The position numbers and the translations under genes were made by a program. A DNA stretch of 64,000 nt. It comes from Bryobacterales bacterium (lineage in GTDB: Bacteria; Acidobacteriota; Terriglobia; Bryobacterales; UBA6623). The DNA lies in NCBI GenBank assembly GCA_963422375.2, contig OY729428.2, positions 1,120,001 through 1,184,000 of the forward strand, read 5' to 3'. The notes beneath the pieces are model-generated. The model saw only the letters and a program-made list of their open reading frames with translations. It was not told the origin of the DNA and ran no database searches. This document shows positions 1,441 to 37,709 of this stretch, in pieces. Position 1 is the first letter of the stretch. Each line of letters opens with the position of its first letter.

Positions 1441-3350
1441 CCCGCATTATTCATGGATGCGGCGCAGGCTCATGGATCCGGTTTCCGGGCCCTCGATGGC
1501 CGCCGAATCTGCTTCCGAATCGCCTGCGGGCGGGGCTTGCGGGACGTCTCGCGAGCGGCGTGCGGGCCTCGGGCACCTCGGCGGCGGCGTCCGCCCGGGA
1601 GACAGGCACGGTTTCCCCCGGCGGCGCCCCGCGCCTGCCGACGCACTCTCCCGAGTGACCCGGCCCGGGGTCATATCGGCGCGGCCCCAAGCCCCGCGCC
1701 ACCACCACCCAGGCGTCCCGGAACGGTGCCGTCCGCGGCACTCGCAGCACGATCCGCTTCGCCGTGACCGCGACCCGCGCCCCCGGCTTCGGCAGGCCGA
1801 GGCGCAACCCGTCCACCCGGCGCTTCCGCAGCGGCGTGTCCCGTGCCTGCCAGCGCAGTTCCTGCATGATCACGCAGGCCGCCGCCGCGAGCGGCACGCG
1901 GAACCGGTTCGCCGCGAAGCTCGTGCAGCTGGCGCGGTCCATCCGCATCCCTTGCTTGAGCTCCTTGATGCGGTTCTCCACGTCTCCCCGCAGGCAGTGG
2001 ATCCGCTCGTAGAGGCGCTGCGGGCTGCCGCCCGCGTTGGTCACCGCGTAGCGCGGGTGCCACTGCGGGGCGCGCCCGGGAAACTCGCTCACGTCCGCCT
2101 TGACGATCACCCGCCGCGCCCGCGACCGGCGGCCCGCCCGGTAGACGAACTGCCCGTACAGCGGGCCCGGCCGGCCCCCCTGCGTGCCGGCTCCCAGCCG
2201 CGCGTACTTCGCCCGCAACTGCTCCAGGCGGGTCCCCCGGGGCCGCCCCTTCCCCGCCGGGGTCCGTGCCCGGGATGCCGCCGGGCGCGCGCCGGGCCTC
2301 GACGGCCGCCCGCAACGGGGCCGCGCGCCGCTCCGGCACCGCGTTCTTCTGCAGGCACGCCACGTACTCCAGGCCCTCGCGCTCGCCATAGGCCAGCAGC
2401 TCGTCCCCTTGGAAGCCCGCGTCCAGGCGCAGGCGCAGCGTCGCCCGCGGGAAGAATTCCCGCAGCAGCGGCAGCAAGCGGTCCAGCAGCGGCAGCAAGC
2501 CCTCCGCGGCCGCCGCCGTGCCCGAGCGCAGCAGCGCCGCCACGAGATGCCGCTCGCGCTCGTCGTCGAAGCGCACCGCGCCCACCAGCGGCAAGTAGCA
2601 AGGCAAGTAGCAATGCGTGTCGTAGAAGCCGTTGCACAGCGCCAGCTGCCGGCCCCCGTGCGTCGGCTCGCAGGTCGGGTCGAAGTCCAGCTCGACGATC
2701 CTCGTCTCGGGGCGCCGCTCGTGCCGGCGCCGCACGACGCAGCGGGCCGGTACCGCGGACAGCGCGCTCGGCGCGTCCGCGGTGCCGGCGTTCTCGAAGC
2801 GCGACAGGGTGGGCCGGGACGGCAGGTCGCGACCCTGCCAGGGGTCGCGCCCGAGCGGCAGCTTGAACACGGGGTCGCCGCCGAGGCGCCCGGCGTCGTT
2901 GCAGTCCTCGCAGCCGCAGGCGAGGCCGTAGATGCGCTGGCCGAGCATGTCGGCGAGGGAGTGGAGCACCTCGGAGGGCTGGCGCCGGTCGCGCAGGCAG
3001 TCGGCGAACGCCGCGGTGAGGCCGAGAGCGCGGTCGGCGATCACGACCGGGACAGCGCCGCCGTCGGAGCTGCTGCGCTCGTGATCGAAGCGGACGGCGA
3101 CGGGGCGACGGCGCGGATTGCGGGACGGAAGGCCTTGGGAGCCTGCGGCTGCGACCATGGATTCAATAGCACCTACCGGCTGAAAACAGTTGCAGTCAAT
3201 TGACTTGGATCTCACCCGAACCGGGCCGGGGTTGCCGCCGGGGATCGCAGGGCACTCGTGGGAGCGAGGATCGCGCTGGACCGGAGGCCCTCACGGCCCG
3301 GGCGGAGGGACCGGACTATGGCCCTCCGGGCTACTCATGAATTATCCGGG
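1441..3350 (-). mobile_element. IS1380-family insertion sequence (1910 bp) with TIRs and CTAG target duplication
   Basis: Left end CCCGCATTATTCATG; right end reverse complement CCCGGATAATTCATG; CTAG at 1437-1440 and 3351-3354. Confidence 0.88.
1671..3215 (-). pseudogene. IS1380-family transposase, frameshifted near 2260
   Basis: N-part SSDGG, GQRIYGLACG.EDCND, LSRFEN, DFDPT, RLDAGF in ORF 1671..3215; C-part RGDVENRIKELK, SFAANRFR in a different frame (ORF 1451..2389); 12-bp duplication gives CYLPCYLP. Confidence 0.85.
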
Positions 3351-3411
3351 CTAGGACGCATCCCTCAACGGCTCGATGTCGATGCGTCGCAGGCGAAAAG
3401 CGACGCGACAC

Positions 3412-3753
3412 TCAGTCGAAGTGCTCGTCCAGAGGATCGAACGCCGGAATCGGGATGTTGAGAATCCGCAGGTTCCCGCTAGCGCGGTGCCTGCAGCCGG
3501 GCCGGATCATCACCGACGTCAGCGGCCGCAGAGGGTAGGTGCGTCCGTCGAGCTCGATGCTGCCCTCGCCCTCCAGCACGACGTAAATCTCCGTCATGCC
3601 CTTGTGGTAGTGCGTCTGCGAGTCGGCGCTGATATCGGTCAGATGCACTGTCGCGACATCGTTGCCCGGCCCCGCGAATGCTCGCCGCGCCTGCCCGCAA
3701 GGGCAGGCGACGGGCGGGACCTCGTCCAGCTGGGCGATGCGAAATCTTGCCAT
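3412..3753 (-). CDS. Cupin domain protein (113 aa)
   Basis: ATG at 3753; CPCG motif, THYHKGMTEIYVVLEGEG and IRPGCRHRA cupin motifs. Confidence 0.85.
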   Translation of the reverse strand: MARFRIAQLDEVPPVACPCGQARRAFAGPGNDVATVHLTDISADSQTHYHKGMTEIYVVLEGEGSIELDGRTYPLRPLTSVMIRPGCRHRASGNLRILNIPIPAFDPLDEHFD

Positions 3754-3886
3754 GGAGGTCCCTTCTGCAACCTGCCGGCCTATCATACCTATCGCTGTCC
3801 CGCCCGCGGCCCGACCGAGGCACGCACCGCGCGTTCCGGCGTCGCCGCAGTCAGAACCCGAGAGAAGCGAGCCGAGGGGGCGACTC

Positions 3887-4741
3887 TCACCGGAAGCTGC
3901 GCCAAGCGTCGTCGCATTCCAAGCATCCCGAACCGCGCTCGTGCAGGAAGACGGTCGCATCCCGCTCCAGCTCCCGCCGGACCGCGTCGACGATGTCCCG
4001 AGAAGCTGCGAGTCACGCGGGCGCGTATCCGACCCTCCCCTCGGCCTGCCGACCATCCGTCCGCAACCAGTCGCCCGCGAGACTGAACCGGCTGCAGCAG
4101 TGGTCGTTCTCCTCGTAGTCGACACGAAGCGCGACGCCTCTCGAGATCACGGTGCAGTGCCTTGCCATGCGGTACGGCACGCCGGCCAGGATCTCGGCCA
4201 GGTGGATCGTGGTGTTCGATTCGTGCCCGACGCCCGCGAGCAGCAGCTTGCCTTGCAACTCCAGGACCCGACCGACGGGGCTCTTCATGCCGTGAGGGGG
4301 AAAGCAGATCGGATCCGCCGTGACGGCCGCTGCCTTCGGCCCCGCCGCGGCGAAGGCAAAGGGGTGGTCGCTGCGCTCAACGCACGGCAAGCGCCAGAAC
4401 GTGTCGGCGACAGCTCCTAGATCCGGGTTGGCCGGGGTGACGCCGGTATAAAACGGGGCGTCGTCGTTGCCGGTGTACGACGGCATCACCAGCGTGCCGT
4501 CCGGACCAAGCGCCTGGAGCAGGCCGGCGATCAGGCCGGCAGGCCCTCCCGCGGCCGGCCGGATCGCGCGGTACGAGGCGTGAAACAGGAGCGTCTCCCC
4601 GTCCCGGACACCCAACGCGCGAAGTTGCGCGGCCACCTCCGACGGGGGAAGCGACCGCTTGGCCTGCCAGTCCCGATCCGCAGGCGTGCGTCTTGGGGCG
4701 TGGGCGGTCCGCCTCACGGCGTCGCGTAGCGAAGTTCCCAT
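3887..4741 (-). pseudogene. AAC(3)-IV-like aminoglycoside 3-N-acetyltransferase with in-frame TGA at 4013-4015
   Basis: HASYRA, GPDGTLVMPS, DLGAVADTFWRLP, HPFAFAAAGP, NTTIHLAE, RVDYEENDHCC; read-through after TGA gives LAASRDIV...FLHERGSGCLECDDA, matching the AAC(3)-IV C-terminus; true start uncertain. Confidence 0.85.
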
Positions 4742-17462: not shown

Positions 17463-19388
17463 ATGCATTCATCCCGTCCCGGGCAAGCGGCTAGTCTCGC
17501 CACGGCGTGCCTGCTGGTCTCGGCCGGCACCCTCCTGGCGAAGTCCAACGGTGCGCCGAGCGGCCACACGGGCGGCCCGTTCCCTGGCGAGCAGAGCTGC
17601 ACCGTCTGCCACGGCGGCTCCGAGATCAACTCCGGGAGCGGCACGCTCGCGATTTTGGTCGACGGCGCGCCCGCTTCGGAGTACCGGTACACGCCTGGCG
17701 AGACCGTGTCGCTGATCATCAATTTCAGCGACCCGGACGCGCAGCGCAGCGGCTTTCAGGTCACCGCCCGCTTTGCCGACGAAGGCTGCGGCCAAGCCGG
17801 CAGCTTGGCCCCCGGCCCCTCCCCGAGCACCTCCCCCGTGAAGATGGTCAGCGGAAGCTGCGGCGCCGGCAACGTGCAGTGGGCGACGCAGCGCAGGGCC
17901 GCGAGCGGATCCTCGGCCACCTGGGACGTAGCGTGGACCGCACCGAGCGAGGACATCGGGCCGGTCACGTTCGCCGTCGCCGCGAACGGCGCGAACGGCA
18001 ACGCGTCGACCTCGGGCGACAGCATCTACCAGATCCGAGCAACGGTCGAACCGGAGGCGGCAGCCGCGCCGCCGGCGATTTCCGACGCGGGAGTCGTGCT
18101 CGCGGACCTGCGCAGCGCGACAGCGAAGGGCGCTCCGAACGCTTTGGCGACCGCCCGCGGGTCGGGTTTCGCGGCGGCGACGGTCGTGGGCTCAAGCGGC
18201 GTCTTGGAGGCGGCAGGAAGGGTCAGCACGGTTCTCGAGGGCTCGTGCGTCGAAGTCAACCAGCAGCGGGCCCCGCTCGTCCGTATCGCGCATGACGAGG
18301 CCACCTTCCAGATCCCGTCGGCGGCCGGCCTCGGGGCGGCCACGGTGCAGGTCATCCGGGGCTGCGACACGCCGGAGGGAGCGCGCAGCAACAGCATCGC
18401 GTTCCCGATCTCTGCCGCGCAGCCGGTCCTGTTCCAGTTCTCCGAAGAGGACGAGGGCACGTCGGCGCTACTGCCGGACCTGTCGCTGGCCGCGCCGGCC
18501 GCCGACACGGGCACGCTGCGGCGCCCGGCCCTGCCGGGCGAGGTAGTGACCTTCCTCGGCACGGGATTCGGATTGACGGCACCGCCGCTTGAGACTGGCG
18601 AGATATCGCCACTGCCGCGACGGCTCGCGACGGCCAGCATCCGCCCGATGATCGGCCAGTTCGAGGTGCAGGCCGACCACATCCTGTACGCCGGTGCGTC
18701 TCCGGGCTTCGCCGGCTTGTACGAGCTGAGCCTGCGCCTCCCGGACAACGTACCCGCCGGCTCCCATGCGTTCGGCGTGCTGGTCAACGGCGTGGCCTCC
18801 GCGACGGGTCCGAAGCTGGAAGTAGGCGCGCTCCCAGCGCCTCCGCCGGTCACCGGCCCGACTACCGAGGTCGAGTGCGCGGTCGGCTTGGTCGTCAAGC
18901 CCGGCGGGCGCTGCACGGCAACGGTCGCCGGGATCGAAGCCTCGTTCGAAGTGCACGCGACGACCGGCCAAGGCTGCATCGCGGCCGGAGCGGTGAGCAC
19001 TTGCGATGCCTCGAAGCTAGCGGCCAACGGAGCCGAGGCGTCGAAGAATGCCGACGGCAGCTGGACACTTCACAAGATGCCGACAGCCCCGCCTCCGGAT
19101 AAGCCGGCGACCGACGAACCCGTCACCTGCAACAAGGACATGGTGCTCGGGCCGGGCCAGAGCTGCAACGCAACGGTCGACACACCCACTTTCGGCGTGA
19201 TCACCGGCCGCTTGGACGTTGACGCGGGCGGCAACGCGTGCGTGGAGGCGCTGCAGGGCTTGATCAAGGCGTGCGGCATGAAGGACATCAACGCCAACCT
19301 AGGCATCATTGGGGGCGAGGTCAAGGACAACGGCGACGGCACGTGGACTATTACCAAGCTGCCTCCGCCGCCGGAACCCTCGCCGTAA
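17463..19388 (+). CDS. Secreted protein: Reeler/choice-of-anchor V-like N-domain with CxxCH, TIGR03437-like domain, two C-terminal Cys-rich repeats
   Basis: Signal peptide; GEQSCTVCH, GFQVTA, WTAP, AANGANGN..SGD.IY; PA.PGEVVTFLGTGFG, YAGASPGFAGLYEL. Confidence 0.75.
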   Translation: MHSSRPGQAASLATACLLVSAGTLLAKSNGAPSGHTGGPFPGEQSCTVCHGGSEINSGSGTLAILVDGAPASEYRYTPGETVSLIINFSDPDAQRSGFQVTARFADEGCGQAGSLAPGPSPSTSPVKMVSGSCGAGNVQWATQRRAASGSSATWDVAWTAPSEDIGPVTFAVAANGANGNASTSGDSIYQIRATVEPEAAAAPPAISDAGVVLADLRSATAKGAPNALATARGSGFAAATVVGSSGVLEAAGRVSTVLEGSCVEVNQQRAPLVRIAHDEATFQIPSAAGLGAATVQVIRGCDTPEGARSNSIAFPISAAQPVLFQFSEEDEGTSALLPDLSLAAPAADTGTLRRPALPGEVVTFLGTGFGLTAPPLETGEISPLPRRLATASIRPMIGQFEVQADHILYAGASPGFAGLYELSLRLPDNVPAGSHAFGVLVNGVASATGPKLEVGALPAPPPVTGPTTEVECAVGLVVKPGGRCTATVAGIEASFEVHATTGQGCIAAGAVSTCDASKLAANGAEASKNADGSWTLHKMPTAPPPDKPATDEPVTCNKDMVLGPGQSCNATVDTPTFGVITGRLDVDAGGNACVEALQGLIKACGMKDINANLGIIGGEVKDNGDGTWTITKLPPPPEPSP

Positions 19389-19807
19389 GCCCTTACGACT
19401 CATTGCCAGAGGCTCGATCCGGTTCCTGCACGACGAGTGGCAGGCGGTGACCGGGCCGAGGAGCGACTGGACATTGACGCGCGCATTGGACGACGAGCCA
19501 AGCGCACGTTGAGCGCTGGATGCCTCAGAGCGGCGTTTCTCGCCCACCGCTCCCCGTTCGAACCGATCGCGCGTCGGTCGCTCGGAGACAATCCTCGACC
19601 GTATCCTTTCCGCGCCTGACGGTCCAGCGTAAGTCTATCGGGTCAAGACCGTGGGCACGCGACGCGATTCTGGTATAGTCGACGCGGACGAGAATGGTAT
19701 TGGCTGGGCTGCGGTCATGGGTGAAACGTCTTTGGCCTTTCACAAGGAAACCCCCATCGCCTGCAAGCCCCGTCTCCTAGGATCCCGTTTCCGAACCTTC
19801 GCCGACC

Positions 19808-22006
19808 ATGGCGGGCTCGCACTCCGAGCAACCACAGGCAGGAGATACTCCCCGCGATGGACTTTCCGATAGTCAATCTGAGACCGGGCCACTGGTCAAT
19901 AAAACCAGGCCTGCCGAGTCGAGCCCCACTCCTGCCGAACCTCCATCCGATCACGCCGCTCCCGAAAACGAACATCCTTGCCCGACCGACGATGCCGACG
20001 ATCAAGTTCCGCTCGATTCGGAAGGAACCGAACCCCACGAGACGTCCACCGGCGCCCCACCAGCCGATGACGACGGGCAACACTCTCCACCGAAAACCGG
20101 CAACTTCCGGGAAAGCGGCAACCCGGACGGCAGTAGCGGGAGCAATGCGAGCGCAGGTAAATCACCGAATACGAATCGCACCGGGAGACGAGGCCGACAG
20201 TCCGGCAATCCGGGATCGGAGCGCCGAGAATCTCCATCATTCCGCCCTGGACTGATTTGCCGGTTAAGTTCCCGCATCCGCGATATGGGAGGTCTTCCTG
20301 TTCGAGGACGAGCGGTGGCCGGTGGCGGCGGTGCGTCTCGGAGACACTCCTCTGGAAGTCACAGGCCGACGCTGCCGTCTCCCTTCGCTCAGCGGCTGCC
20401 TGAGCGTTTTCTTCCGGGACGGACAGGAACGCGCCGTTCCGCTGTTCGAGGGCGAGCCCTTGATCTTCAAGCTGCGTAAGAACTGGACGGGCGAGGGGCG
20501 CAGAATCGCCCGGACTACGACCGGTCACTTCATCGTCATCGCGCCGCATACGTGGGAAGGGACGGGGCATGCACCGGTTGAAGCGCACGGTTGTGCGGAT
20601 CCGGCATTCCGGGCACACTATTTTCACCGGGACCCAACTGCGTCGGACGGGAACGGCGACGGATTCCGCGAGTGGAGTCCTTTCCTGTCTGCCGCAAGCA
20701 TCGAACTGACCGGGCACCGCATCTTCGACGATTCGAGCGACGAAGATCTCTTCTTTGGCGACCCGCCCGGTCTGGAATCCTCACCGGAATTTGAGTGGTC
20801 GCGGGTCAGAGAGGAGGCCGAACACGGATAGGGACAGAACTTCCGGCCCGACCGGGAGTCTCTTCCGGAAGTTCTGGCTGGCAGAGAAGGCCGCTCTTAT
20901 CTCCGCGGTTACGACCCGGAAGTCAGCCTGCTCGACAGTGTGGCGTTCCGGTATGTGCGCAATTTGAGCCGGATCGAAGTCGATGGGTCGGAATATGCTC
21001 AAGACACGGTGCTCGTGCCGACGAAGACGGGCTATCCGCGCACGCAGGTACGCTTCATCGGCACCGATGGCACATCACGTACTCCGGTACTACTGCCGGC
21101 CGAAGCACACCAAGCCATAGCGCCGTCGGGCGCGGTCATCGTTCCGTCGCACCCGGACGCGGACCCAATAAAGTGCAGTCTTGGATCGGGCGGCGATACC
21201 GTGAACATCGTCCTGAACCTTCCCCGAATCTGGTGGCGGCTGGAGGACGGACGGCCCCGTACGGACGAGTGGCGCGACACGCAGCTCGTCATGACACGTG
21301 AGGAGTTCAAGAACCACGCCTACGCGGGAGCGAGGCTCTCACTCTTGTCGAAACGGGAGGCATCGGTTCGCGCAGGGTTCGACGATGAACCGGGCCAAGA
21401 GTACAGCCGAACAATCGAGGAGAAGCGCATCGCGATTCCCCTAGCACACTTCGTCGACCACGCTCAGATCGACCGGAGACTGAGCGTCGATGCGCATTTC
21501 AACGTCGAATGGGCCGGAGAGATTGTCCCGCTCATGGTGATTCGCGCCGACCCCATACCCGAGATCGTGTCCTTCACCGCGGAACCGGAGGCGGTGTTCG
21601 GCGGTCAGGAGGCGATTCTGGAGAGTGGACGACCCGGAACGCCAGCGAAGCCCTCGTGGCCATAGATCCAGACATAGGCGTGGTCGGAAGCAATGGAACC
21701 TTTACCGTCCGCCCCACTGAAACGACCCGATACGCGCTCACCTTGGCCGTTTCCGACACCAACGATATCTGCAGGACCGTAACGGTTAGCGTCGATTCGC
21801 TGCCTGGGTCCGGAAAGCGACCAGCCGCTCGCGTTATGTCTACCGGAGGCGGATGGAGAGTCGGTAAGGGGTTCAGTCGCCTTGAACTCAAGAGCGTCGG
21901 CCTGACAGTGCCGGAGGCAGCGGATCGTTCGATCCCCGTTGACAGGCGCCGGCAAACCTCACACCGGGTCAACGTAGATGCAATCAGGAGCATGCTCGAT
22001 GCCTGA
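19808..22006 (+). pseudogene. Large hypothetical protein (about 730 aa reconstructed) with C-terminal ribosomal L13e-like domain; frameshifts near 20262 and 21620, TAG at 20829
   Basis: ORFs 19808..20479, 20322..20831, 20940..21665 and 21509..22006 join into one coherent product; the end is WRVGKGFSRLELKSVGLT...IPVDRRRQTSHRVNVDAI. Confidence 0.65.
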
Positions 22007-25000
22007 GATCGACATTCGGGATTGGCCGGAGAGAGTCCGGGAACGCTATGAGAACTACCTAGTGCCCGTGACAAAACTCGTATGCCCTTGACAACAAAGG
22101 CGTTAGGTCCAATCTCTCAAGGCGAAGATTTCGCTGGAATGCTACGACTAATCCGAAATCCTGGCGATTCTGGGTAGAGCGCGGAAATCTTCGCGATTGG
22201 CGGCTGAGCAACTTCCGACCTTGGGCCCTATATGTTGTGTTTGGAGATCCATCCGACATCAGGATGTAGTATGAAATGCTGATCAGGCCAGAATTCAGGG
22301 GTTTTGTCACAAGCACTACCTAAAGACCTCCTTCTACTTCAAGGAACGCCCCCTCCGGTCATCCTTCGAGAAAGCCCTGCGCAAAGAGGGAAGACTCCTG
22401 AAGGGGCCTTTTCCGGAACGCCACCGTGGGTTCGCGACAGGCATGGCCGCGCGGGCGCTGGCGGCCGAGTGTTTCCGCGGCGGGGCCGAGGGTCTCTTGC
22501 CAGCGCTGATCGACGGCCCGTTGTATACGCATCAAGAACGCGCCATCCGCACCACGCATGTCGAAGCACTGAACGTGGTGGTCGCCACCGGCAGCGGCAA
22601 AACGGAGAGCTTCATCTACCCCGTCTTGTTTGAACTCTACCGCCAGCATCTCGCCGGAGAGCTCGAAGAGCCGGGGGTGAGGGCCATGATTCTCTACCCG
22701 ATGAACGCGCTCGCGAACGATCAGCGCGAGCGTCTGGGCAAGATCTGCAGGGACTTGAAGGAGGCCGGATCCGAATTTGAACCGACATTCGGGCAATACA
22801 TCGGCCAGACGCCGGAGAATGCCGGGGACAGACGGCGCTATGCCGCCGCACGCTATGAAGCTTGCTTGCCGGGGGAGCTTGTCTTTCGCGAAGAGATGCG
22901 CCGGTTCCCGCCGCATGTCCTGCTGACCAACTACTCCATGCTGGAGTATCTTCTCATCCGTCCCGACGACAGCCTTCTGTTCGACGGCGGGCGAGGCACG
23001 CATTGGCAGTTCGTCGTGCTCGACGAGGCGCATCAGTATCGCGGCGCACGGGCATCGAAATGGGGATGCTGGTCCGGCGCCTCAAGCAGCGCCTGCGCGA
23101 CGGGGGACGGCAAGATCCGTTCCGATGCATCGCCACCAGCGCGACGATTACCACCAGCCAGGACGACGAAGACAGGCAGGCGGTTGCGGAATTCGCGAGA
23201 GAACTTTTCGGGGAGCCCTTCTCAGGACGCGCTATCGTCTTCGGCGAATCGCGTCCGTCCGGCGACGATGGAGCTCCCCGGCGCTTCCACGCGTTTCTCC
23301 GCGCACTTGAAGGCGCCTTCCTCGTTCACCAAGAAGACGCGGATACCGTGGTGCTCAATCGAAAGAGCGAGGGCGGACCTGGCGCGGCCGGGAAGCCCTT
23401 GGAAATCGCGCTCTGTCGAGAGTGCGGCCAGCATTACTATGTCGGCCGGGAACATGGGGGTCGGTTGCGAGAGGCCGTTCGCGATCCGAGCGATCCGGGT
23501 TTCGGTGTCGATTACTACCTTCCGACGGACGATGGAGACCATTCGCCATGCAGACACTGCGGCATCCTGTCAAGGTCCACGCCCGGCTGCGACTGCGGTG
23601 CAACGATTCCGGTGATGAAATGCGACTCCGACGCACAGAAGCCCGACCAACTAAAGCGGTGCGAGTTCTGTGGCTATCGGCGCGGCGGGGTCGGCGATCC
23701 CGTTCAGGAAATCGTGCATGGATCGGACGGGCCGAACTCCGTGATCGCGACCGCCCTTCACGAACTGCTTCCGGAAGGCCGGCGCAAGGTTCTCGCTTTC
23801 GCCGACAGCCGCCAGGAGGCGGCGTTCTTCGCTTGGTACGCCGAGGATTCCTACGAAAAGCTACGCGACCAAAACTTCATCCTGCGGGCCATTAAGTCCG
23901 AACCCGTAGCTGAGGAAGGGCTGTCCATCGACGACCTCCGGAACCGCCTGCTCCGGCAGTGGGACGAGGCCGGGCTCTTCAGCGAAGCGGATACACGGGA
24001 GCAGCGAACCCGCCGTGTTCTCACGTCCATCCTGCGAGAGGCGTTGACCGAGGAGAAGAGACTGTCCCTGGCCGGCGTCGGCTTGGTCAGATGGTTCATC
24101 GCACTGCCCCAAGACCTGCGTATGCCGGGCATTGTGGGGCGCTCGCCATGGAATTTCACCGAGATCGAGGCGCGCGCGCTGGTCGGCTACCTGCTGAACG
24201 AGATGCGTCAGCGCCGCGCGATGAGCCTGCCCGGGGGCGCCGATACGCCGCCATGGAACGACATCTCACCCTGGCCGCAAGAGGCATTCGGGAACGCGCC
24301 GCCGAAAAGTCGACGCCACATCGTGCAGTGGGACGGCCCCCAATCCGCGATCGTCAGTCACTTCCTTCGAAGGCTCCTCGCGCATAGCGGCCTGTCCAAG
24401 GACAGGAAGCGATGCGCGTCGACGGAACTGATGACGGCGTTATGGCGCGCATTGCGCGAATATACCGACGATCCCGTACTAAAGCCTGCGAAGGTAAACG
24501 GCACGTTCCATCTCGATTCGCGCTGGCTCCGGATCAAGCCCGCCCGCCTCGACGATGTCCGGGAGTGCGACACCTGCGCCACTCTTGCGAACCACGACGT
24601 TCGAGGCGTCTGCCCCCGAAACAAGTGCCCAGGCACGCTCTCGCCGGCCCGTCGCGACCACCCCGACGGGAACCACTATCGAATCCTCTATGAGAGTTCT
24701 GGATTGCCCCCGGCTCTGCGCGCGGAAGAACACACCGCTCAGATCGATGCCGACGAGGCGCGCAAGAGGCAGGAGCGCTTCAAGACCGGCGAAATCCACC
24801 TCCTAAGCTCCTCCACCACGTTCGAGGTCGGCGTCGACCTTGGCGACTTGGAGTCCGTGTTTTTCCGCAACGTCCCCCCGGAATCGTTCAACTACGCTCA
24901 GTGCGCCGGTCGGGCCGGTCAGCGGGACACACCCGGGCTGGTGCTGACCTACTGCCGCCGAAATCCCCACGACCTCTATCACTATGAGAGTCCCGTCGAC

Positions 25001-26059
25001 CGAGTGATCGAGGGTGCGATTCATCCGTCGCGCTTTCGCATGACGAACGAGAAAATCTTCCTGCGGCACATGGTCGCCGTCGCCTTGGCTGAATTCTTCA
25101 AGAAAGACACTGTCAGGTTCCAGAACATCGAGACCTTTGTCGGTGACCGGCATGCACCTCAGGCGAGAAGCGACCTTTTCACATTCTGCGAAGATAACGG
25201 TGCGTTGAAGGAGACCATGTTCCGCATCGTTCCGGAGAACATGCATGGGCACATCGGTCTCGAGGACGAAGCTTGGATTGTCAACATCGCCGGCAAGAAG
25301 AGCCGCCTTGCCTTGGCAGAGACGGACGTGTGCGCGGACTACACTGAAATGGAGGCCCGTCCCAGGCAATGCTTCGAGCAGGGCAGAGATAGCTGGGTCG
25401 GGCGCATCGGCAAGCGCATGAAGACCATCGCGGAGGAACGGACGCTCAATTTCCTTTCCCGAAAGGCCGTCATTCCAAAGTACGGATTTTCGGTGGATGT
25501 CGTGGAGCTCGATGTCCGTTCCACCGATGGACAAGCGACTGGCGTCGCGCTCCAGCGGGACCTGTCGCAGGCGATCGCCGAGTACGATCCCGGCGGCAAG
25601 GTGGTTGCCAACAAGCTCGAGTGGAAGTCATGGGCGTCAAGGCGGTTGCCGGCAAGGCATGCCCGGTGCGCCATTACCGTTACGACGACGCACGCAACTT
25701 CAAGCAATGGAACGAAGGCAATGCAGAGGCACGACCGCATGAACGGAAGTACCTCATTCCCGAGTTCGGCTTCGTGACAGACCTATTCTAGAAACCCTCC
25801 GAGCCGAAGGGACGGGCGCGCCGCTTGTACACAACGCGGCCATTCTTCAGGGGGTTCGAGGAGCAGCCTACAAGCAAGACCATGTTCGGCGGCGTGCAGA
25901 TGACGCAGGCCGTACCCGGTATGCTAGTCATCCTTTGCGAAGGCAGGAACCGGGAGGGCTTCTACATCTGCCGTTCCTGCGGCAGACACATGGCCAAGCC
26001 GCAGGTAGCCCACAAATCTCCGTCGGACTCCGACTGTACTGAGGGGCGCAAAAGTCTTT
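21999..26059 (+). pseudogene. DEAD/DEAH-box helicase of YprA/DUF1998 (DrmB/DruE-like) type, interrupted by MITE, frameshifts and IS1595
   Basis: AGGAG RBS + ATG 21999 overlapping upstream TGA; LYTHQE, ATGSGKT, YPMNALANDQ, LTNYSMLEY, DEAH, FADSRQEAA, EEHTAQ, STTFEVGVDLGDL, AGRAG; Zn-finger CxxC clusters; frameshifts near 23050 and 25630, TAG near 25788. Confidence 0.85.
22062..22316. mobile_element. MITE copy 1 (255 bp), TIR GTGCYYGTGACAAAAC, TSD TACCTA
   Basis: TACCTA at 22056-22061 and 22317-22322; removal restores helicase frame ...YENYL-KTSFYF... Confidence 0.9.
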
Positions 26060-26990
26060 CCTGATTACCCACAAGACTCAGCCAAGGTTAGGAGGCGGTA
26101 AGGCATGGGTGAGGTGCGCACGGAGGCGTGGAGCAGGCGGGGGACCAGCGCCTCCAGGTCGTAGCGGCGGTTGAAGCGGTAGCGGAACTCGGCGAGGTAC
26201 CGCGGCACGTGCTCGCAGCCGGCGCCGGCCACGCCCCGCAAGCAGGCCGGGCCGTCGGAATGCACCTCCGTGCCGGGCTGCAAGTGCCGCCCGGCCCACG
26301 CTGCCAGCGTCTTCTTGCGCAAGCCCGCCACGCTGCTCAGGCGCATCCTTGCCGGCTGGCCGGCGGCGGTGACCTGCACGGCGGCGACGAACGGCGTCTT
26401 GCCCGCCGCGCCGCGCCCGCGCTTGCCGCCGCTCCGCTCCCCGCCCCAGTAGGCCCCAGTAGGCGTCGTCCACTTGCACGATGCCGTGCAGCGGCACGCG
26501 CTCGTCGCGCTCCTTCAGCACTGGCAGGAGCTTGTGCTGCACCTTCCAGGCCGTGTCTTCCAGGCCGTGTTCCGGCTGACCTCCAGCTGCCGCGCCAGTT
26601 CCAGCGACGAAACGCCGTGCTGGCCCTGCGTCAGCGGGTGGATCGCCGGGAACCAGACGGTCAGCGGCAGCTTGGTGGCGGCCAAGATCGTGCCGGCGAC
26701 GAGGGAGGTCCGGCGGTGGCAGGCATTGCACTGCCGGAGCTTGCGGGAGCGGATGCGGCAGTGCCGGCGGGAGCCGCACTCCGGGTAGCGGAAGCCGTCC
26801 GGCCAGCGGGCGTTGAAGACGGCGTGCTCGCATGGCCCCTCGCTGCCGTAGCGCTGCAGGAACTTGCCCAGGCTGAGTCCCTTCTGGAATTGCACGCGAT
26901 TGCGTTTCATCTGCTATCTCCTTTCATATCATAGATTTCTAACCTCCTTCAGTATAGCATATCCTCGGCTGACGTTCGTTGGTAATCAGG
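26060..26990 (-). mobile_element. IS1595-family element copy A, defective (frameshifts, internal deletion)
   Basis: TIRs CCTGATTACC at both ends; MKRNRVQFQKGLSL, RWPDGF, ATKLPL, VQVDDAYWG, RYLAEFRYRFNRR. Confidence 0.9.
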
Positions 26991-27222
26991 AAATATTTTC
27001 GGATCGGCCAGGCCAGAATGTACTGGCAACTGGGTTCCCAAGAAGTCTGCTAAGAAGGAGATATTCCAAATTCAAGTACGCAATATACTGTGTAGATAGT
27101 TACGGTATATCACAATATAAAGGCCTAAGTTCGAGAATTCAAGACTCTATCTCTGCGCTGCTATGATGACAGCCTGAATCGGAAGTCGACTGAGTATGGC
27201 CCGTATCTTGGGAAAAGACTTT

Positions 27223-28265
27223 CCTGATTACCAACGAATGTCAGCCGAGGATATGCTATACTGAAGAAGGTAGGAAGTCTCTGATAAGAAAGGAGATAGC
27301 AGATGAAACGCAATCGCGTGCAATGCCAGCAGGGACTCAGCCTGGGCAAGTTCCTGCAGCGCTACGGCAGCGAGGGGCCATGCGAGCAGGCCGTCTTCAA
27401 CGCCCGCTGGCCGGACGGCTTCCGCTGCCCGGAGTGCGGCTCCCGCCGGCACTGCCGCATCCGCTCCCGCAAGCTCCGGCAGTGCAATGCCTGCCACCGC
27501 CGGACCTCCCTCGTCGCCGGCACGATCTTCGCCGCCACCAAGCTGCCGCTGACCGTCTGGTTCCTAGCGCTCCACCTGCTGACGCAGGGCCAGCACGGCG
27601 TTTCGTCGCTGGAACTGGCGCGGCAGCTGGGCGTAAGCCGGAATACGGCCTGGAAGACACGGCCTGGAAGGTGCAGCACAAGCTCCTGCAAGTGCTGAAG
27701 GAGCGCGACGAGCGCGTGCCGCTGCACGGCATCGTGCAAGTGGACGACGCCTACTGGGGCCTACGGGGGCGGGGAGCGGACCGGCGGGCAAGACGCCGTT
27801 CGTCGCCGCCGTGCAGGTCACCCAGGTCACCGCCGACGGCAAGCCGGCAAGGATGCGCCTGAGCAGCGTGGCGGGCTTGCGCAAGAAGACGCTGGCAGCG
27901 TGGGCCGGGCGGCACTTGCAGCCCGGCACGGAGGTGCATTCCGACGGCCCGGCCTGCTTGCGGGGCGTGGCCGGCGCCGGCTGCGAGCACGTGCCGACCG
28001 TCACCGGAGGCGGGCAGCGGAGCTGCGCGGATTCCCGCTTCGTCCGGGTCAGCAGGATGCTGGCGAACGTCAAGCAGTCCCTGGCGGGAACCTGCCATGC
28101 GCTCGACGGCAAGCACCTGCCGCGCTACCTCGCCGAGTTCCGCTACCGCTTCAACCGCCGCTACGATCTCGAGGCGCTGGTCCTCCGCCTGCTCCACGCC
28201 TCCGTGCGCACCCCGTCCATGCCTTACCGCCTCCTAACCTTGGCTGAGTCTTGTGGGTAATCAGG
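27223..28265 (+). mobile_element. IS1595-family element copy B, defective (frameshifts)
   Basis: Same TIRs (CCTGATTACC ... GGTAATCAGG); near-identical to copy A in inverted orientation; RWPDGFRCPECG, HSDG, YLAEFRYRFNRR. Confidence 0.9.
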
Positions 28266-28731
28266 ATTCGTTATCAAGGACGAAATCGAATGGGTCGGCG
28301 TGATCCGGACGAAAACAGGGCGGCATCGTTTCGAGCGTTGTCCGATAGTGAAGTTTCGTGGTCTTGAATGGCCCGTCCCTGTCAAGAGTCTGGGAGATGG
28401 CCCGAAGCGAGTATTCTCGTTAGGCATAGCTTTGGCGAATGCTTCGAATAGATTCCTGCTGATCGATGAAGTCGAGAATGGGATACACCATTCTTCGCAA
28501 CTCTCCTACTGGAATATGATTTTCTCGCTAGCGCGGCGCAACTCAATCCAGATTATTGTAACGACACACAGTTACGATGCCGTTGTCGGTTTCGCTCGGA
28601 CTGCGAGAGAGTATGAAAGCAAAGACAGTGCATTTATACGGCTCCAAAGGAAGAATGGTATTCTCAGTACAATAGAATACTTTCACGAGGAACTGATGAC
28701 GGCTACAAAGTACGAAGTTGAAGTCAGGTAG
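28266..28731 (+). pseudogene. C-terminal fragment of ABC-type (AAA_21/AbiEii-like) ATPase, 5' part removed at IS1595
   Basis: SLGDG signature, LLIDEVENGIH Walker B, TTHS H-loop, ends EVR*; lower GC than flanks. Confidence 0.8.
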
Positions 28732-36585: not shown

Positions 36586-37262
36586 TCACCGCATGGGAGA
36601 AGGAGATGCCTTGATGACGAGGTTGAAATGTGCAAGAGCGCTCGCTTTGATCTGTTCGCCAATCACTTCGGCGAACAATGGAGGAACTGCATTTCCGATT
36701 TGCATGCATACTTTGTCCATTCGATCCGTAGCAAACACATAATCTTGCGGAAACGTCTGGAGCAGGGCTGCTTCCCGAACAGAGATAGTCGTCCGTCCGC
36801 CGTCGGGGTGGCCGAAACGCCCCTTTGCTGGTGTTGTACAGCCGGCTGTGATGGTCGGTGACGCTTGGTCCCAGGACATTCGACCGTAGATATTCGTGAA
36901 GCCCACATAGTTTCCTTGATGGCAGGTGGGCCGAAGACTCTCATCAATGTCGCGCCAAGACCCGCCAGGGACAGCCGCACGCAGCCTTGCCTCGGTCTGC
37001 GGTTGAAGATCCCTGACAACATGCCAGCCGAATCGCTGAGGGCCCCCGCACTCCATCGCGCGCTTCATTTGCAACGGCATGCCTAGTCGAGGCAGCGCTT
37101 CTCGAACCGTTACCCAAGGGCGGAGACGTCTATCAGGTTTCGGATGTCGTGCATGGGTGATCGGTGGAAACGGAATAGCGAAGCCACGCCCAGCCATGAT
37201 CACAAGTCGTCTCCTTGACTGAGGGACTCCATAATCCGCCATTTGCAGCACCCTGCTAGTTA
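36586..37262 (-). pseudogene. dcm: DNA (cytosine-5)-methyltransferase, C-terminal part only
   Basis: ADYGVPQSRRR (motif VIII), YGRMSWD, TISVREAALLQTFP (IX), QIGNAVPP (X); motifs I-VI absent, cut at MITE copy 2. Confidence 0.85.
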
Positions 37263-37517
37263 GTGCCCGTGACAAAACTCGTATCCCCTTGACAACAAAG
37301 GCGTTAGGCCCAATCTCTCAAGGCGAAGATTTCGCTGGAATGCTACGACTAATCCGAAATCCTGGCGATTCTGGGTAGAGCGCGGAAATCTTCGCGATTG
37401 GCGGCTGAGCAACTTCCGACCTTGGGCCCTATATGTTGTGTTTGGAGATCCATCCGACCTCAGGATGTAGTATGAAATGCTGATCAGGCCAGAATTCAGG
37501 GGTTTTGTCACAAGCAC
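37263..37517. mobile_element. MITE copy 2 (255 bp), 3 substitutions vs copy 1
   Basis: Direct copy of 22062..22316; flanks TAGTTA and TAATTA. Confidence 0.9.
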
Positions 37518-37709
37518 TAATTAGTGGGCTCGGTACTTGTGGGCAGCTCAGTCTCGGAGGATTCAGATAGGCGATGAAGATCGACGAGATTTCCCGCCCA
37601 CGCGACCAGAAACGGGATGCACGAGCCGGGAGAAAACTCTTGACGCTCTCTGTATCATACTAAGTGGCTGATAAGACTGCAGGAGGCTCGGGAGGCAGGC
37701 CTGCGAGCA

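What the first reader, a model, noticed from the sequence alone, without database searches (positions are those of the whole stretch)
19808..26059. Ribosomal-L13e-like domain fused to an unknown protein and coupled to a YprA/DUF1998 helicase: candidate undescribed defence module
Seen: four ORF fragments join into a roughly 730-aa protein with an acidic disordered N-terminus, beta-rich middle and Ig-like segment. It ends (about 21824-22006) in ARVMSTGGGWRVGKGFSRLELKSVGLTVPEAADRSIPVDRRRQTSHRVNVDAI. Its stop overlaps the helicase start (ATGCCTGA, AGGAG RBS). Established: GRGFS..EL..AG...I.VD.RR....NV is the signature of eL13 (L13e), a eukaryote/archaea-specific ribosomal protein absent from bacterial ribosomes; YprA/DUF1998 helicases are core parts of DISARM and Druantia. 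Inference: an L13e-type nucleic-acid-binding module has been recruited as a sensor or recognition domain in a two-gene helicase defence system, here decayed.
Basis: partly seen in the sequence, partly recalled or inferred. Interest (0 to 1): 0.8.

Follow-up and report, generated by a model that had tools for sequence, protein, structure and literature searches.

The report
Decayed Druantia-like pair, eL13-tailed partner
This is a broken copy of a two-gene, probably anti-virus, module in which the helper protein ends in a real piece of ribosomal protein eL13, which bacteria otherwise lack; intact copies exist in many uncultured bacteria.

Summary
Window 19694-22006 (not 19808) encodes a roughly 770-codon protein, "X". 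It is broken by two in-frame TAGs and two frameshifts. Its last 60 residues are intact and are a true eL13 core by sequence and predicted fold. Its stop overlaps the start of a DruE-family helicase.

That helicase is also dead. It carries a MITE insertion, two frameshifts and one TAG. An IS1595 element cuts it at about residue 1262 of 1400, so this copy has no DUF1998/MZB domain.

- **Pairing:** intact X genes lie directly upstream of a compact helicase (about 1400 aa, no nuclease domain) in 45 of 48 loci. All 48 are MAGs, from many phyla.
- **Helicase lineage:** one such helicase is listed in print as "Druantia Type III-B-like".
- **Partner:** X matches no PADLOC model, DruH included. I found no paper linking eL13 to Druantia.
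- **Tail:** 38 of 44 X proteins carry the eL13 tail. Relatives carry ribosomal S17 or S6 there, or NusB inserted before it, so the position takes up small RNA-binding proteins.

Best reading: a pseudogenised Druantia-III-B-like module whose partner uses a captured nucleic-acid-binding tail. Function is inferred, not shown. The scan has noted this family before on other DNA.

The parts
19694..22006 (+). Partner gene X, a pseudogene of about 770 codons. It has an N-terminal helix, an acidic disordered linker, a run of beta-sandwich (Ig-like) domains and an eL13-like tail.
   Evidence: The family profile matches in three frame pieces of the own genome. tblastn with intact homologues gives 19685-20263 in frame 2, 20268-21623 in frame 3 and 21623-22003 in frame 2. 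AF2 model of homologue P0004: mean pLDDT 80.6. Foldseek returns multi-Ig proteins.
19778..19780 (+). In-frame TAG number 1 in X
20263..20268 (+). Frameshift number 1 in X, just after the conserved motif ending in ICR
20829..20831 (+). In-frame TAG number 2 in X, at a position that is Trp in every aligned homologue
21620..21626 (+). Frameshift number 2 in X, at the start of the last Ig-like domain
21812..22003 (+). Intact eL13-core tail (64 aa) with the motif GKGFS..E...G...IPVD.RR..H..N
   Evidence: Pfam and NCBIfam hits. AF2 model pLDDT 89.9. Foldseek best hit 9e6q_AH: E 8.3e-5, TM 0.79, 38% identity.
21986..21990 (+). AGGAG ribosome-binding site for the helicase, inside the end of X
21999..26064 (+). 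DruE-family (Druantia III-B-like) helicase, a pseudogene. It covers residues 1 to about 1262 of a roughly 1400-aa protein and lacks the MZB/DUF1998 domain.
   Evidence: PADLOC DruE hits. Pfam DEAD and Helicase_C only. tblastn pieces at 21999-22061, 22308-23066, 23051-25666 and 25624-26037.
22060..22320 (.). MITE of about 255 bp inserted after helicase codon 21. It is flanked by the direct repeat ACTACCTA. At least 40 copies at 95-99% identity occur in the genome.
23051..23066 (+). Helicase frameshift number 1
25624..25666 (+). Helicase frameshift number 2
25789..25791 (+). In-frame TAG in the helicase
26059..26993 (-). IS1595-family copy that truncates the helicase. Its transposase is itself split into separate Zn-ribbon and DDE ORFs.
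27220..28266 (+). Second IS1595-family copy, inverted relative to the first

Best explanation
The locus is a dead, horizontally acquired copy of a two-gene module of the Druantia type III-B-like class.

In intact relatives the first gene (X, about 580-990 aa) encodes:
- a short N-terminal helix
- a fast-evolving acidic disordered linker
- a run of beta-sandwich (Ig-like) domains
- a 60-residue C-terminal domain that is the conserved core of archaeal/eukaryotic ribosomal protein eL13

The second gene is translationally coupled to X by an overlapping stop and start. It encodes a compact DruE helicase with DEAD, Helicase_C and MZB/DUF1998 domains and no nuclease domain.

Published work on DruH-DruE describes DruE as a 3'-to-5' ssDNA translocase acting on phage replication intermediates, and DruH as a multi-Ig protein that binds or processes ssDNA and docks on DruE. 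By analogy, I propose that X is the infection-sensing adaptor. Its Ig string would be the scaffold. Its tail would supply nucleic-acid binding (structured RNA, ssDNA or junctions) that tells the helicase where or when to load. The tail position takes up small RNA-binding proteins (eL13 core, uS17, bS6, NusB).

Shown here: the homologies, the gene pairing, the variety of domains at the tail position, and the decay of this copy.

Inferred: anti-phage function, nucleic-acid binding by the tail, and X-helicase contact.

In this genome the module cannot work. Both genes are broken, and the helicase has lost its Zn-binding MZB domain.
For: Tail is an eL13 core:
- Pfam hit above the gathering score and NCBIfam E 2.5e-12.
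- A family profile searched against the PDB hits eL13 chains and nothing informative besides; the best is the archaeal 9e6q_AH at 1.1e-6.
- The tail model (pLDDT 89.9) has 50 of its 50 listed Foldseek hits in archaeal or eukaryotic large-subunit or pre-60S entries; the best has TM 0.79 and 38% identity.
- The tail profile finds free-standing proteins of 70-95 aa at about 1e-17. Of 10 such clusters, 3 are named L13e and 2 carry archaeal organism labels.

Pairing:
- The helicase lies immediately downstream on the same strand in 45 of 48 loci. The other 3 loci are cut by contig ends.
- The helicase ORF is intact at 1396-1436 aa in 38 of 45.

Helicase class:
- PADLOC DruE1 at 1.3e-148; Pfam DEAD, Helicase_C and MZB, with no nuclease domain.

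Partner behaves as the variable component:
- Mean pairwise identity over 28 loci is 67.9% for the helicase, 44.3% for the X core and 20.8% for the X N-terminal part.

Varied tail:
- 38 of 44 X proteins carry the eL13 tail.
- 4 carry an unrelated tail of about 95 aa, and 1 carries a basic coiled coil.
- In 2 the eL13 motif is split by an insert of about 70 aa.
- Other members carry a full Ribosomal_S17 (104.9 bits), Ribosomal_S6 (30.1 bits), or NusB (96.6 bits) inserted before the eL13 tail.

Acquired DNA:
- The region 19-30.5 kb is about 60% GC against about 70% in the flanks.

Published mechanism of DruH and DruE:
- Passages read.
Against: - No experiment exists on this family.
- X shows no detectable sequence relation to DruH. 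There is no PADLOC hit even at E 10. The DruH3 model finds nothing in the own genome. hhalign against one DruH3-like protein gives probability 0.4%. The analogy therefore rests on gene order, the Ig-like architecture and the helicase alone.
- Foldseek matches for the X body are generic multi-Ig proteins with low TM scores.
- eL13 has no partner in a bacterial cell, so what the tail binds is open.
- The published papers disagree on what DruH does: ssDNA binder inhibited by ATP, 3'-5' exonuclease, or scaffold.
- I did not show that the S17-, S6- or NusB-bearing members sit next to a helicase (one search returned only true S17 genes).
- AlphaFold may reproduce the eL13 fold from training data.
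Confidence: 0.6

Rival explanations
1. The tail is a protein-docking module. It holds X on the helicase, in the way the C-terminal helical domain of DruH contacts the DruE stalk. Any nucleic-acid affinity would be incidental.
For: [quoted passage not shown] The tail is the C-terminal, partly helical domain of X.
Against: Unrelated folds can stand in its place (a full S17, S6, an unassigned 95-aa tail, a coiled coil) while the helicase stays highly conserved at 54-93% pairwise identity. That is hard to square with one fixed docking surface.
Confidence: 0.15
2. The tail is a bait. It copies translation or transcription factors (S17, S6, NusB) that phage proteins bind or modify, so the module fires when a phage effector grabs the copy.
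For: The non-eL13 modules found are complete or near-complete host proteins. S17 covers profile positions 1-67 of 68, and NusB covers 2-133 of 133. The S17 tail is up to 72% identical to ordinary metagenomic S17 genes. From memory, not from a call: lambdoid N antitermination uses NusB, and the T7 kinase phosphorylates S6.
Against: The commonest tail (38 of 44) is eL13, which is not a bacterial host protein and so cannot be a copy of a host target. Only the RNA-binding core of eL13 is kept.
Confidence: 0.15
3. The pair is not a defence system but a DNA-repair or housekeeping helicase module, like MrfA/YprA with MrfB.
For: The helicase matches YprA (6znp_A) at 1.2e-20.
Against: - The best matches are DruE: 9tu7_Y at 4.1e-69 and PADLOC DruE1 at 1.3e-148.
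- Occurrence is patchy: one broken copy in this genome, and only a handful of close relatives among 401 genomes of the phylum.
- The flanks vary and the GC content is foreign.
- Decay is frequent: 6 of 45 helicase ORFs are broken.
- The partner evolves fast.
Confidence: 0.05
4. The L13e resemblance is chance or convergence on a short basic motif.
For: The Pfam score on the window copy is only 0.2 bits above the threshold. The tail profile also picks up low-complexity repeat proteins of the AGFS..EL type, such as P0139.
Against: - NCBIfam E 2.5e-12 for the window copy, and down to 4.7e-16 in L035.
- Reciprocal hits to free-standing archaeal L13e at about 1e-17 across the whole 60-residue core.
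- Fold match with TM 0.79 and 38% identity.
- The same invariant columns in 36 tails.
Confidence: 0.02

Closest known systems
Druantia type III-B / 'type III-B-like' systems: a compact DruE without PLD nuclease plus one upstream partner (Bell et al. 2025, PMC12458937; Himpich et al. 2026 preprint; probably the M. smegmatis DruH-DruE of PMC13316683)
   Same: - Two co-directional, overlapping genes with the partner first.
- The helicase has DEAD, Helicase_C and MZB/DUF1998, Cys-rich Zn modules and no nuclease domain.
- The helicase on contig JAPOVX010000017.1, next to family member P0103, is listed under this name.
   Different: - The partner is shorter (about 580-990 aa, against 1132 aa for the M. 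smegmatis DruH).
- It matches no DruH model.
- It ends in an eL13 core or another small RNA-binding protein.
- The papers I searched for those words do not mention such tails.
- I could not compare X directly with a III-B DruH sequence.
Druantia type III-A DruH-DruE (E. coli, P. aeruginosa)
   Same: - DruE homology: 9tu7_Y at 4.1e-69.
- The partner is a multi-Ig-like protein with a distinct C-terminal domain.
- One X homologue (L018) has an N-terminal PIN nuclease domain. This recalls the exonuclease reported for the N-terminal domain of DruH.
   Different: - DruE here is about 1400 aa, against about 2100 aa, and lacks the two PLD domains.
- X has no sequence similarity to DruH.
- X has a long acidic disordered N-terminal region.
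Ribosomal protein eL13 (Pfam PF01294, NCBIfam NF008914), archaeal short form, for example P. calidifontis 9e6q_AH
   Same: The 60-residue core is shared in sequence and predicted fold.
   Different: It is not a free-standing ribosomal protein. It is the C-terminal domain of a roughly 770-aa bacterial protein, and the NCBIfam score (46 bits) is far below the equivalog cut-off of 96. One member is nonetheless named 'ribosomal protein L13e [Chloroflexi bacterium]' by its source (P0266), which is a misannotation.
MrfA/YprA-MrfB repair helicase
   Same: Same helicase superfamily and the same MZB domain.
   Different: The relationship is much more distant (1.2e-20 against 4.1e-69 for DruE). The partner is different, and the distribution is patchy and looks mobile.

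Membership tests
Ribosomal protein eL13 (domain-level homology) | Significant match to the PF01294 / NF008914 profiles | tested here: met
   Window tail: Pfam 25.1 bits against a gathering score of 24.9; NCBIfam E 2.5e-12. Of 44 homologues, 33 have Pfam E<=0.01 (10 of them above the gathering score), and NCBIfam adds 5 more.
Ribosomal protein eL13 (domain-level homology) | eL13 core fold | tested here: met
   AF2 tail model pLDDT 89.9. Best Foldseek hit 9e6q_AH with TM 0.79, rmsd 2.8 and 38% identity. All 50 listed hits are chains of large-subunit or pre-60S entries. This is a prediction, not a solved structure.
Ribosomal protein eL13 (as a ribosomal protein) | Free-standing protein of the archaeal/eukaryotic large subunit, scoring at equivalog level | tested here: not met
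   It is the C-terminal domain of a bacterial multidomain protein. NCBIfam gives 46.2 bits against a cut-off of 96.
Druantia (any type) | DruE signature helicase | tested here: met
   PADLOC DruE1 at 1.3e-148 and DruE3 at 3.3e-139 on intact L001; fragments of the window copy at 8.8e-55 and 3.2e-42.
Druantia type III | DruH partner | tested here: not met
   - No PADLOC hit for the 4 X fragments (E<=0.01), for 9 intact homologues (E<=0.1), or for 4 more at E<=10, apart from one chance PD-T4-6 hit at 0.2.
- The PDLC00038 DruH3 model finds nothing in the own genome.
- hhalign against one DruH3-like protein gives probability 0.4%.
- No solved DruH chain appeared in the PDB searches.
Druantia type III-A | Two C-terminal PLD-like domains in a DruE of about 2000 aa | tested here: not met
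   The intact helicase is about 1400 aa with DEAD, Helicase_C and MZB only.
Druantia type III-B-like (Bell et al. 2025) | Compact DruE-branch helicase, mostly without a nuclease domain, in a two-gene operon | tested here: met
   Architecture. The helicase of L021 (OXF56_01360) is listed under this type in Table S1. Five other accessions were not found in that file, which was cut when stored.
Druantia (function) | Protects against phage | not testable with these tools
   There is no experiment on this family. The window copy is a pseudogene.
YprA/MrfA-type helicase | MZB (DUF1998) Zn-binding domain after the helicase core | tested here: not met
   For the window copy, the helicase is truncated at about residue 1262, and the domain is absent from the window and the genome. 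The feature is met in intact homologues (PF09369 at 1.1e-11).

The most novel reading that the evidence does not exclude
The core of an archaeal ribosomal protein was captured by bacteria and became the standard nucleic-acid-sensing head of a nuclease-less Druantia-like helicase system. That head is an exchangeable cassette that repeatedly takes up other small rRNA- or RNA-binding proteins (uS17, bS6, NusB). This would imply that the branch of Druantia reads an RNA-containing or ribosome- or transcription-linked signal of infection, rather than bare ssDNA. The module moves by horizontal transfer among uncultured bacteria of about ten phyla.
Probability: 0.3. Interest if true: 0.8.

Novelty: new variant of a known kind. 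Interest (0 to 1): 0.6.

Why it matters
Druantia is one of the most widespread helicase-based defences. How its accessory protein recognises infection is still disputed in the 2026 preprints.

This branch offers a natural experiment. The helicase is nearly constant, while the C-terminal position of its partner carries small, well-understood RNA-binding proteins. That points to which part does the recognising and makes it directly testable by tail swaps and binding assays.

It is also a rare case of an archaeal/eukaryotic-only ribosomal protein domain living on in bacteria in a non-ribosomal job. It is a source of misannotation too: one member is named 'ribosomal protein L13e' by its source.

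For this particular genome the finding is ordinary. It is a dead defence island riddled with MITE and IS insertions.

Tried and rejected
- **Complex prediction.** I folded the X last-Ig-plus-tail region (residues 640-787) with helicase residues 320-1130. The result was no verdict (score 0.00 against a mark of 0.32), which is neither for nor against binding.
- **Alternative tail and split-motif insert.** The 95-aa alternative tail (L008) and the insert that splits the eL13 motif (L024) gave no informative hit in a PDB sequence search. The ESM Atlas gave no usable hit for the alternative tail. NCBIfam and Pfam gave nothing either. They remain unidentified.
- **Remote homology of X to DruH.** hhalign probability 0.4%.
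- **Partners of mid-distance helicases in the same phylum.**
  - G149: hhalign E 0.012, probability 3.5%. The aligned blocks are suggestive but the result is not significant.
  - G050: nothing.
- **X on plasmids or phages.** No match in either collection.
- **Context of the S17-tailed member.** The metagenome scan kept 80 loci, all matching only residues 620-752, that is, ordinary S17 genes. Its adjacency to a helicase is untested.
- **Missing 3' end of the helicase.** Not found in the own genome; there were only two weak, unrelated hits at E 0.002-0.004.
- **TAG recoding.** All three premature stops are TAG, so I considered recoding and rejected it. The gene also carries frameshifts and insertions. 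TAG is also the stop most easily reached from the CAG, TGG and AAG codons of a 60-70% GC gene; at 20829 the homologues have Trp.
- **Profile search A5.** It returned only close relatives with PF01294 or no domain. The other tails appeared only with the divergent profile A6.
Full report
**What is in the window**

The region lies in a stretch of about 60% GC (roughly 19-30.5 kb) inside a roughly 70% GC genome.

Searching the own genome with a family profile, and running tblastn with intact homologues, shows that the first gene starts at 19694. A conserved N-terminal helix motif is encoded upstream of it and is cut off by an in-frame TAG at 19778.

The gene then runs to the TGA at 22004-22006 in three frame pieces. 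These are 19685-20263, 20268-21623 and 21623-22003, with a second in-frame TAG at 20829. The last piece is intact.

The helicase ATG (21999-22001) overlaps the X stop as ATGCCTGA. AGGAG lies 8 nt upstream.

The helicase carries these lesions:
- After codon 21 it is interrupted by a MITE of about 255 bp. At least 40 near-identical copies (95-99%) occur in the genome, from 111 first-look candidates.
- It has two frameshifts, at about 23051-23066 and 25624-25666, and a TAG at 25789.
- It ends at about residue 1262 of 1400, where an IS1595-family element begins at 26059. A second, inverted copy of that element follows.
- The missing end, which holds the MZB/DUF1998 domain, is nowhere in the 96%-complete genome.

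Both genes are therefore pseudogenes. The genome holds no second copy of X.

**Is the L13e likeness real?**

Yes, on several independent lines:
- On the window's own tail, Pfam Ribosomal_L13e scores 25.1 bits against a gathering score of 24.9. The NCBIfam archaeal L13e model gives E 2.5e-12 over profile positions 25-75 of 83.
- A profile of 37 full-length homologues searched against all PDB sequences finds eL13 chains. The best is the P. calidifontis chain 9e6q_AH at 1.1e-6.
- An alignment of 36 tails has invariant F, S, E, D and R columns.
- The AlphaFold model of the window's tail (pLDDT 89.9) matches 9e6q_AH best, with TM 0.79, rmsd 2.8 and 38% identity. All 50 listed hits are chains of archaeal or eukaryotic large-subunit or pre-60S entries.
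- A profile search of 1.84 billion representatives finds 1,432 proteins at E<=0.001, of which 531 are at <=1e-10. They include free-standing proteins of 70-95 aa at about 1e-17. Of ten such clusters looked up, three are named L13e by their sources (one of them from Thermoproteota/Korarchaeota MAGs), one is a hypothetical protein of a Thermococci MAG, and six carry no name.

A few multi-repeat proteins with AGFS..EL repeats also score. These are low-complexity noise.

**The family and its partner gene**

The middle fragment of X finds 130 protein clusters. All are unnamed or 'hypothetical', and roughly half of the 120 listed carry a precomputed PF01294 hit.

A genome scan gave 48 loci, every one of them a MAG. 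Their labels span Alpha- and Gammaproteobacteria, Acidobacteriota (Bryobacterales, Terriglobia, Vicinamibacteraceae, Thermoanaerobaculia), Rhodothermales, Binatia, Gemmatimonadota/Longimicrobiales, Verrucomicrobiota, Chloroflexota (SAR202), Nitrospinales, Thermodesulfobacteriota and Spirochaetota.

In 45 of the 48 loci a close homologue of the window's helicase follows X directly on the same strand. The other three loci end at a contig edge.

The unit consists of two genes with unrelated flanks. The helicase ORF is 1396-1436 aa in 38 of the 45 loci, broken in 6, and cut by a contig end in 1.

Across 28 loci, mean pairwise identity is:

| Part | Mean identity |
|---|---|
| Helicase | 67.9% (minimum 53.6%) |
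| X core | 44.3% |
| X tail | 47.3% |
| X N-terminal part | 20.8% |

No homologue of X was found on plasmids or phages.

**What the proteins are**

The intact helicase has DEAD, Helicase_C and MZB domains and nothing else. It matches PADLOC DruE1 at 1.3e-148 and a solved 2108-aa DEAD/DEAH helicase (9tu7_Y) at 4.1e-69.

Table S1 of Bell et al. [quoted passage not shown] The X homologue P0103 is OXF56_01355 on the same contig. Five other accessions were not found in that file, which was cut when stored.

That paper says this branch most often has no nuclease domain (passage). Himpich et al. describe III-B as DruH plus a compact DruE lacking the PLD domains (passage).

X matches no PADLOC model. 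The DruH3 model (PDLC00038) finds nothing in this genome and matches only 3 of 401 genomes of the phylum. hhalign of the X profile against one of those DruH3-like proteins gives probability 0.4%.

The AlphaFold model of homologue P0004 (pLDDT 80.6) shows:
- a helix at residues 5-35
- disorder over roughly residues 34-151
- beta-rich domains at 159-672
- the tail at 684-740

Foldseek finds generic multi-Ig proteins (contactin, titin, complement C3/C5) at low TM scores. That is the same kind of answer the DruH papers report for DruH (passages). X is thus DruH-like in position and general build. It is not a detectable DruH homologue.

**The tail position varies**

Of 44 X proteins from the loci:
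- 33 have a Pfam L13e hit at E<=0.01, and NCBIfam adds 5 more, making 38 of 44.
- In two of those (L024, L026) the eL13 motif is split by an insert of about 70 aa.
- L042 has only a degenerate look-alike.
- Four (L008, L017, L020, L021) carry an unrelated tail of about 95 aa with no family hit.
- L028 ends in a basic coiled coil.
- L018 has an N-terminal PIN domain at 24.6 bits against a gathering score of 23.6.

A search with a profile of divergent members found 290 proteins. A Pfam scan of 30 of them gave:
- a complete Ribosomal_S17 at the C-terminus of P0353 (104.9 bits)
- Ribosomal_S6 in P0363 (30.1 bits) and weakly in P0352
- a complete NusB inserted before a weak eL13 tail in P0368 (96.6 bits)
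- an N-terminal DUF4389 in P0355
- L13e in 20 others
- nothing in 5

The S17 tail is up to 72% identical to ordinary metagenomic S17 genes. This confirms by my own tests what earlier notes of this scan reported for other genomes, and it adds S6 and NusB. I did not see the S5 or RNA-polymerase-omega tails they mention. I also could not test whether the S17, S6 and NusB members sit beside a helicase.

**How it most likely works**

Published work (passages only) describes DruE as a 3'-to-5' translocase and helicase acting on ssDNA-containing phage replication intermediates. DruH is described variously:
- an ssDNA binder whose site near the C-terminus is blocked by ATP
- a 3'-5' exonuclease that docks on the DruE stalk through its C-terminal helical domain
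- a scaffold

The M. smegmatis pair protects against phage and needs a DruH-DruE contact.

By analogy, X is the sensing adaptor of a nuclease-less DruE, and its tail is the nucleic-acid-binding part. The common property of the eL13 core, uS17, bS6 and NusB is binding to structured RNA. That statement is established knowledge recalled from memory, not tested here. All of the mechanism is inference; only homology, linkage, tail variation and decay are shown.

**Novelty**

Full-text searches gave these results:

| Search terms | Papers found |
|---|---|
| L13e + defense system + helicase + phage | 0 |
| eL13 + Druantia | 0 |
| PF01294 | 1, unrelated |

The words 'ribosomal' and 'L13' do not occur in the main text of four Druantia papers and the YprA paper. 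'L13e' and 'ribosomal' are also absent from the YprA paper's stored supplements. Supplements of the bioRxiv-only preprints were not visible and could bear on this.

The system class is known. The partner family and its ribosomal-protein tails are, as far as I could see, undescribed in print. The scan itself has noted them on other genomes before.

Noticed in passing
window 22060-22320 and 37261-37519: A MITE of about 255 bp with inverted ends (GTGCCCGTGACAAAAC on the left, a near-complement on the right). At least 40 copies at 95-99% identity occur across all three contigs, from 111 first-look candidates. The copy in the helicase is flanked by the direct repeat ACTACCTA, so the true target duplication (2-8 bp) is not resolved.
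   Followed up: partly
window 26059-26993 (-) and 27220-28266 (+): Two IS1595-family copies lie head to head, with arms 93-99% complementary. In both, the transposase is split into a Zn-ribbon ORF and a DDE ORF, so they may themselves be inactive.
   Followed up: partly
window 28300-28731 (+): The C-terminal fragment only of an AAA_21/AAA_15 ATPase (AbiEii/OLD-like family) lies directly after the second IS. It is probably a second truncated defence gene in the same low-GC island.
   Followed up: partly
window 17463-19388 (+): A 641-aa protein with an N-terminal signal-like segment and a CxxCH haem-binding motif has no Pfam family at E<=0.001. It lies just upstream of the island.
   Followed up: no
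L101 (G069:C8:455000-459600), L068: Another genome of the same phylum carries the same module. X is split by a frameshift (ORFs 2243-3025 and 2979-4463, with the eL13 tail intact), and the helicase matches fall on two contigs, one of them with a stop. In the 48 loci, 6 of 45 helicase ORFs are broken and several X genes are split (L031, L043, L048). Either decay of this module is common, or long-read MAGs carry indel errors.
   Followed up: partly
L018:9482-11818: An X homologue from a Binatia MAG has a PIN nuclease domain at its N-terminus (Pfam 4.1e-5, above the gathering score), in place of the usual helix and acidic linker.
   Followed up: no
L024:9203-11725 and L026:9350-11848: The eL13 motif is split between its GKGFS half and its DRRRR half by an insert of about 70 aa that is rich in beta-strand-like sequence. 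No family or PDB sequence match was found.
   Followed up: partly
P0256 (1173 aa): A family member contains two tandem copies of the whole X core followed by a single eL13 tail, that is, an internal duplication of about 540 aa.
   Followed up: no
P0266 (759 aa): A Chloroflexota member of the X family is named 'ribosomal protein L13e' by its source. This misannotation could make bacterial genomes appear to encode eL13.
   Followed up: no
L042:7637-11686: The ORF upstream of the helicase in a Thermoanaerobaculia MAG reads through a full RpoD-like sigma-70 (NCBIfam 1.3e-106; it also hits the MZA-system sigma factor MzaA at 6e-91) into the X core. This could be a fusion or two adjacent genes in one frame; it was not resolved.
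   Followed up: no
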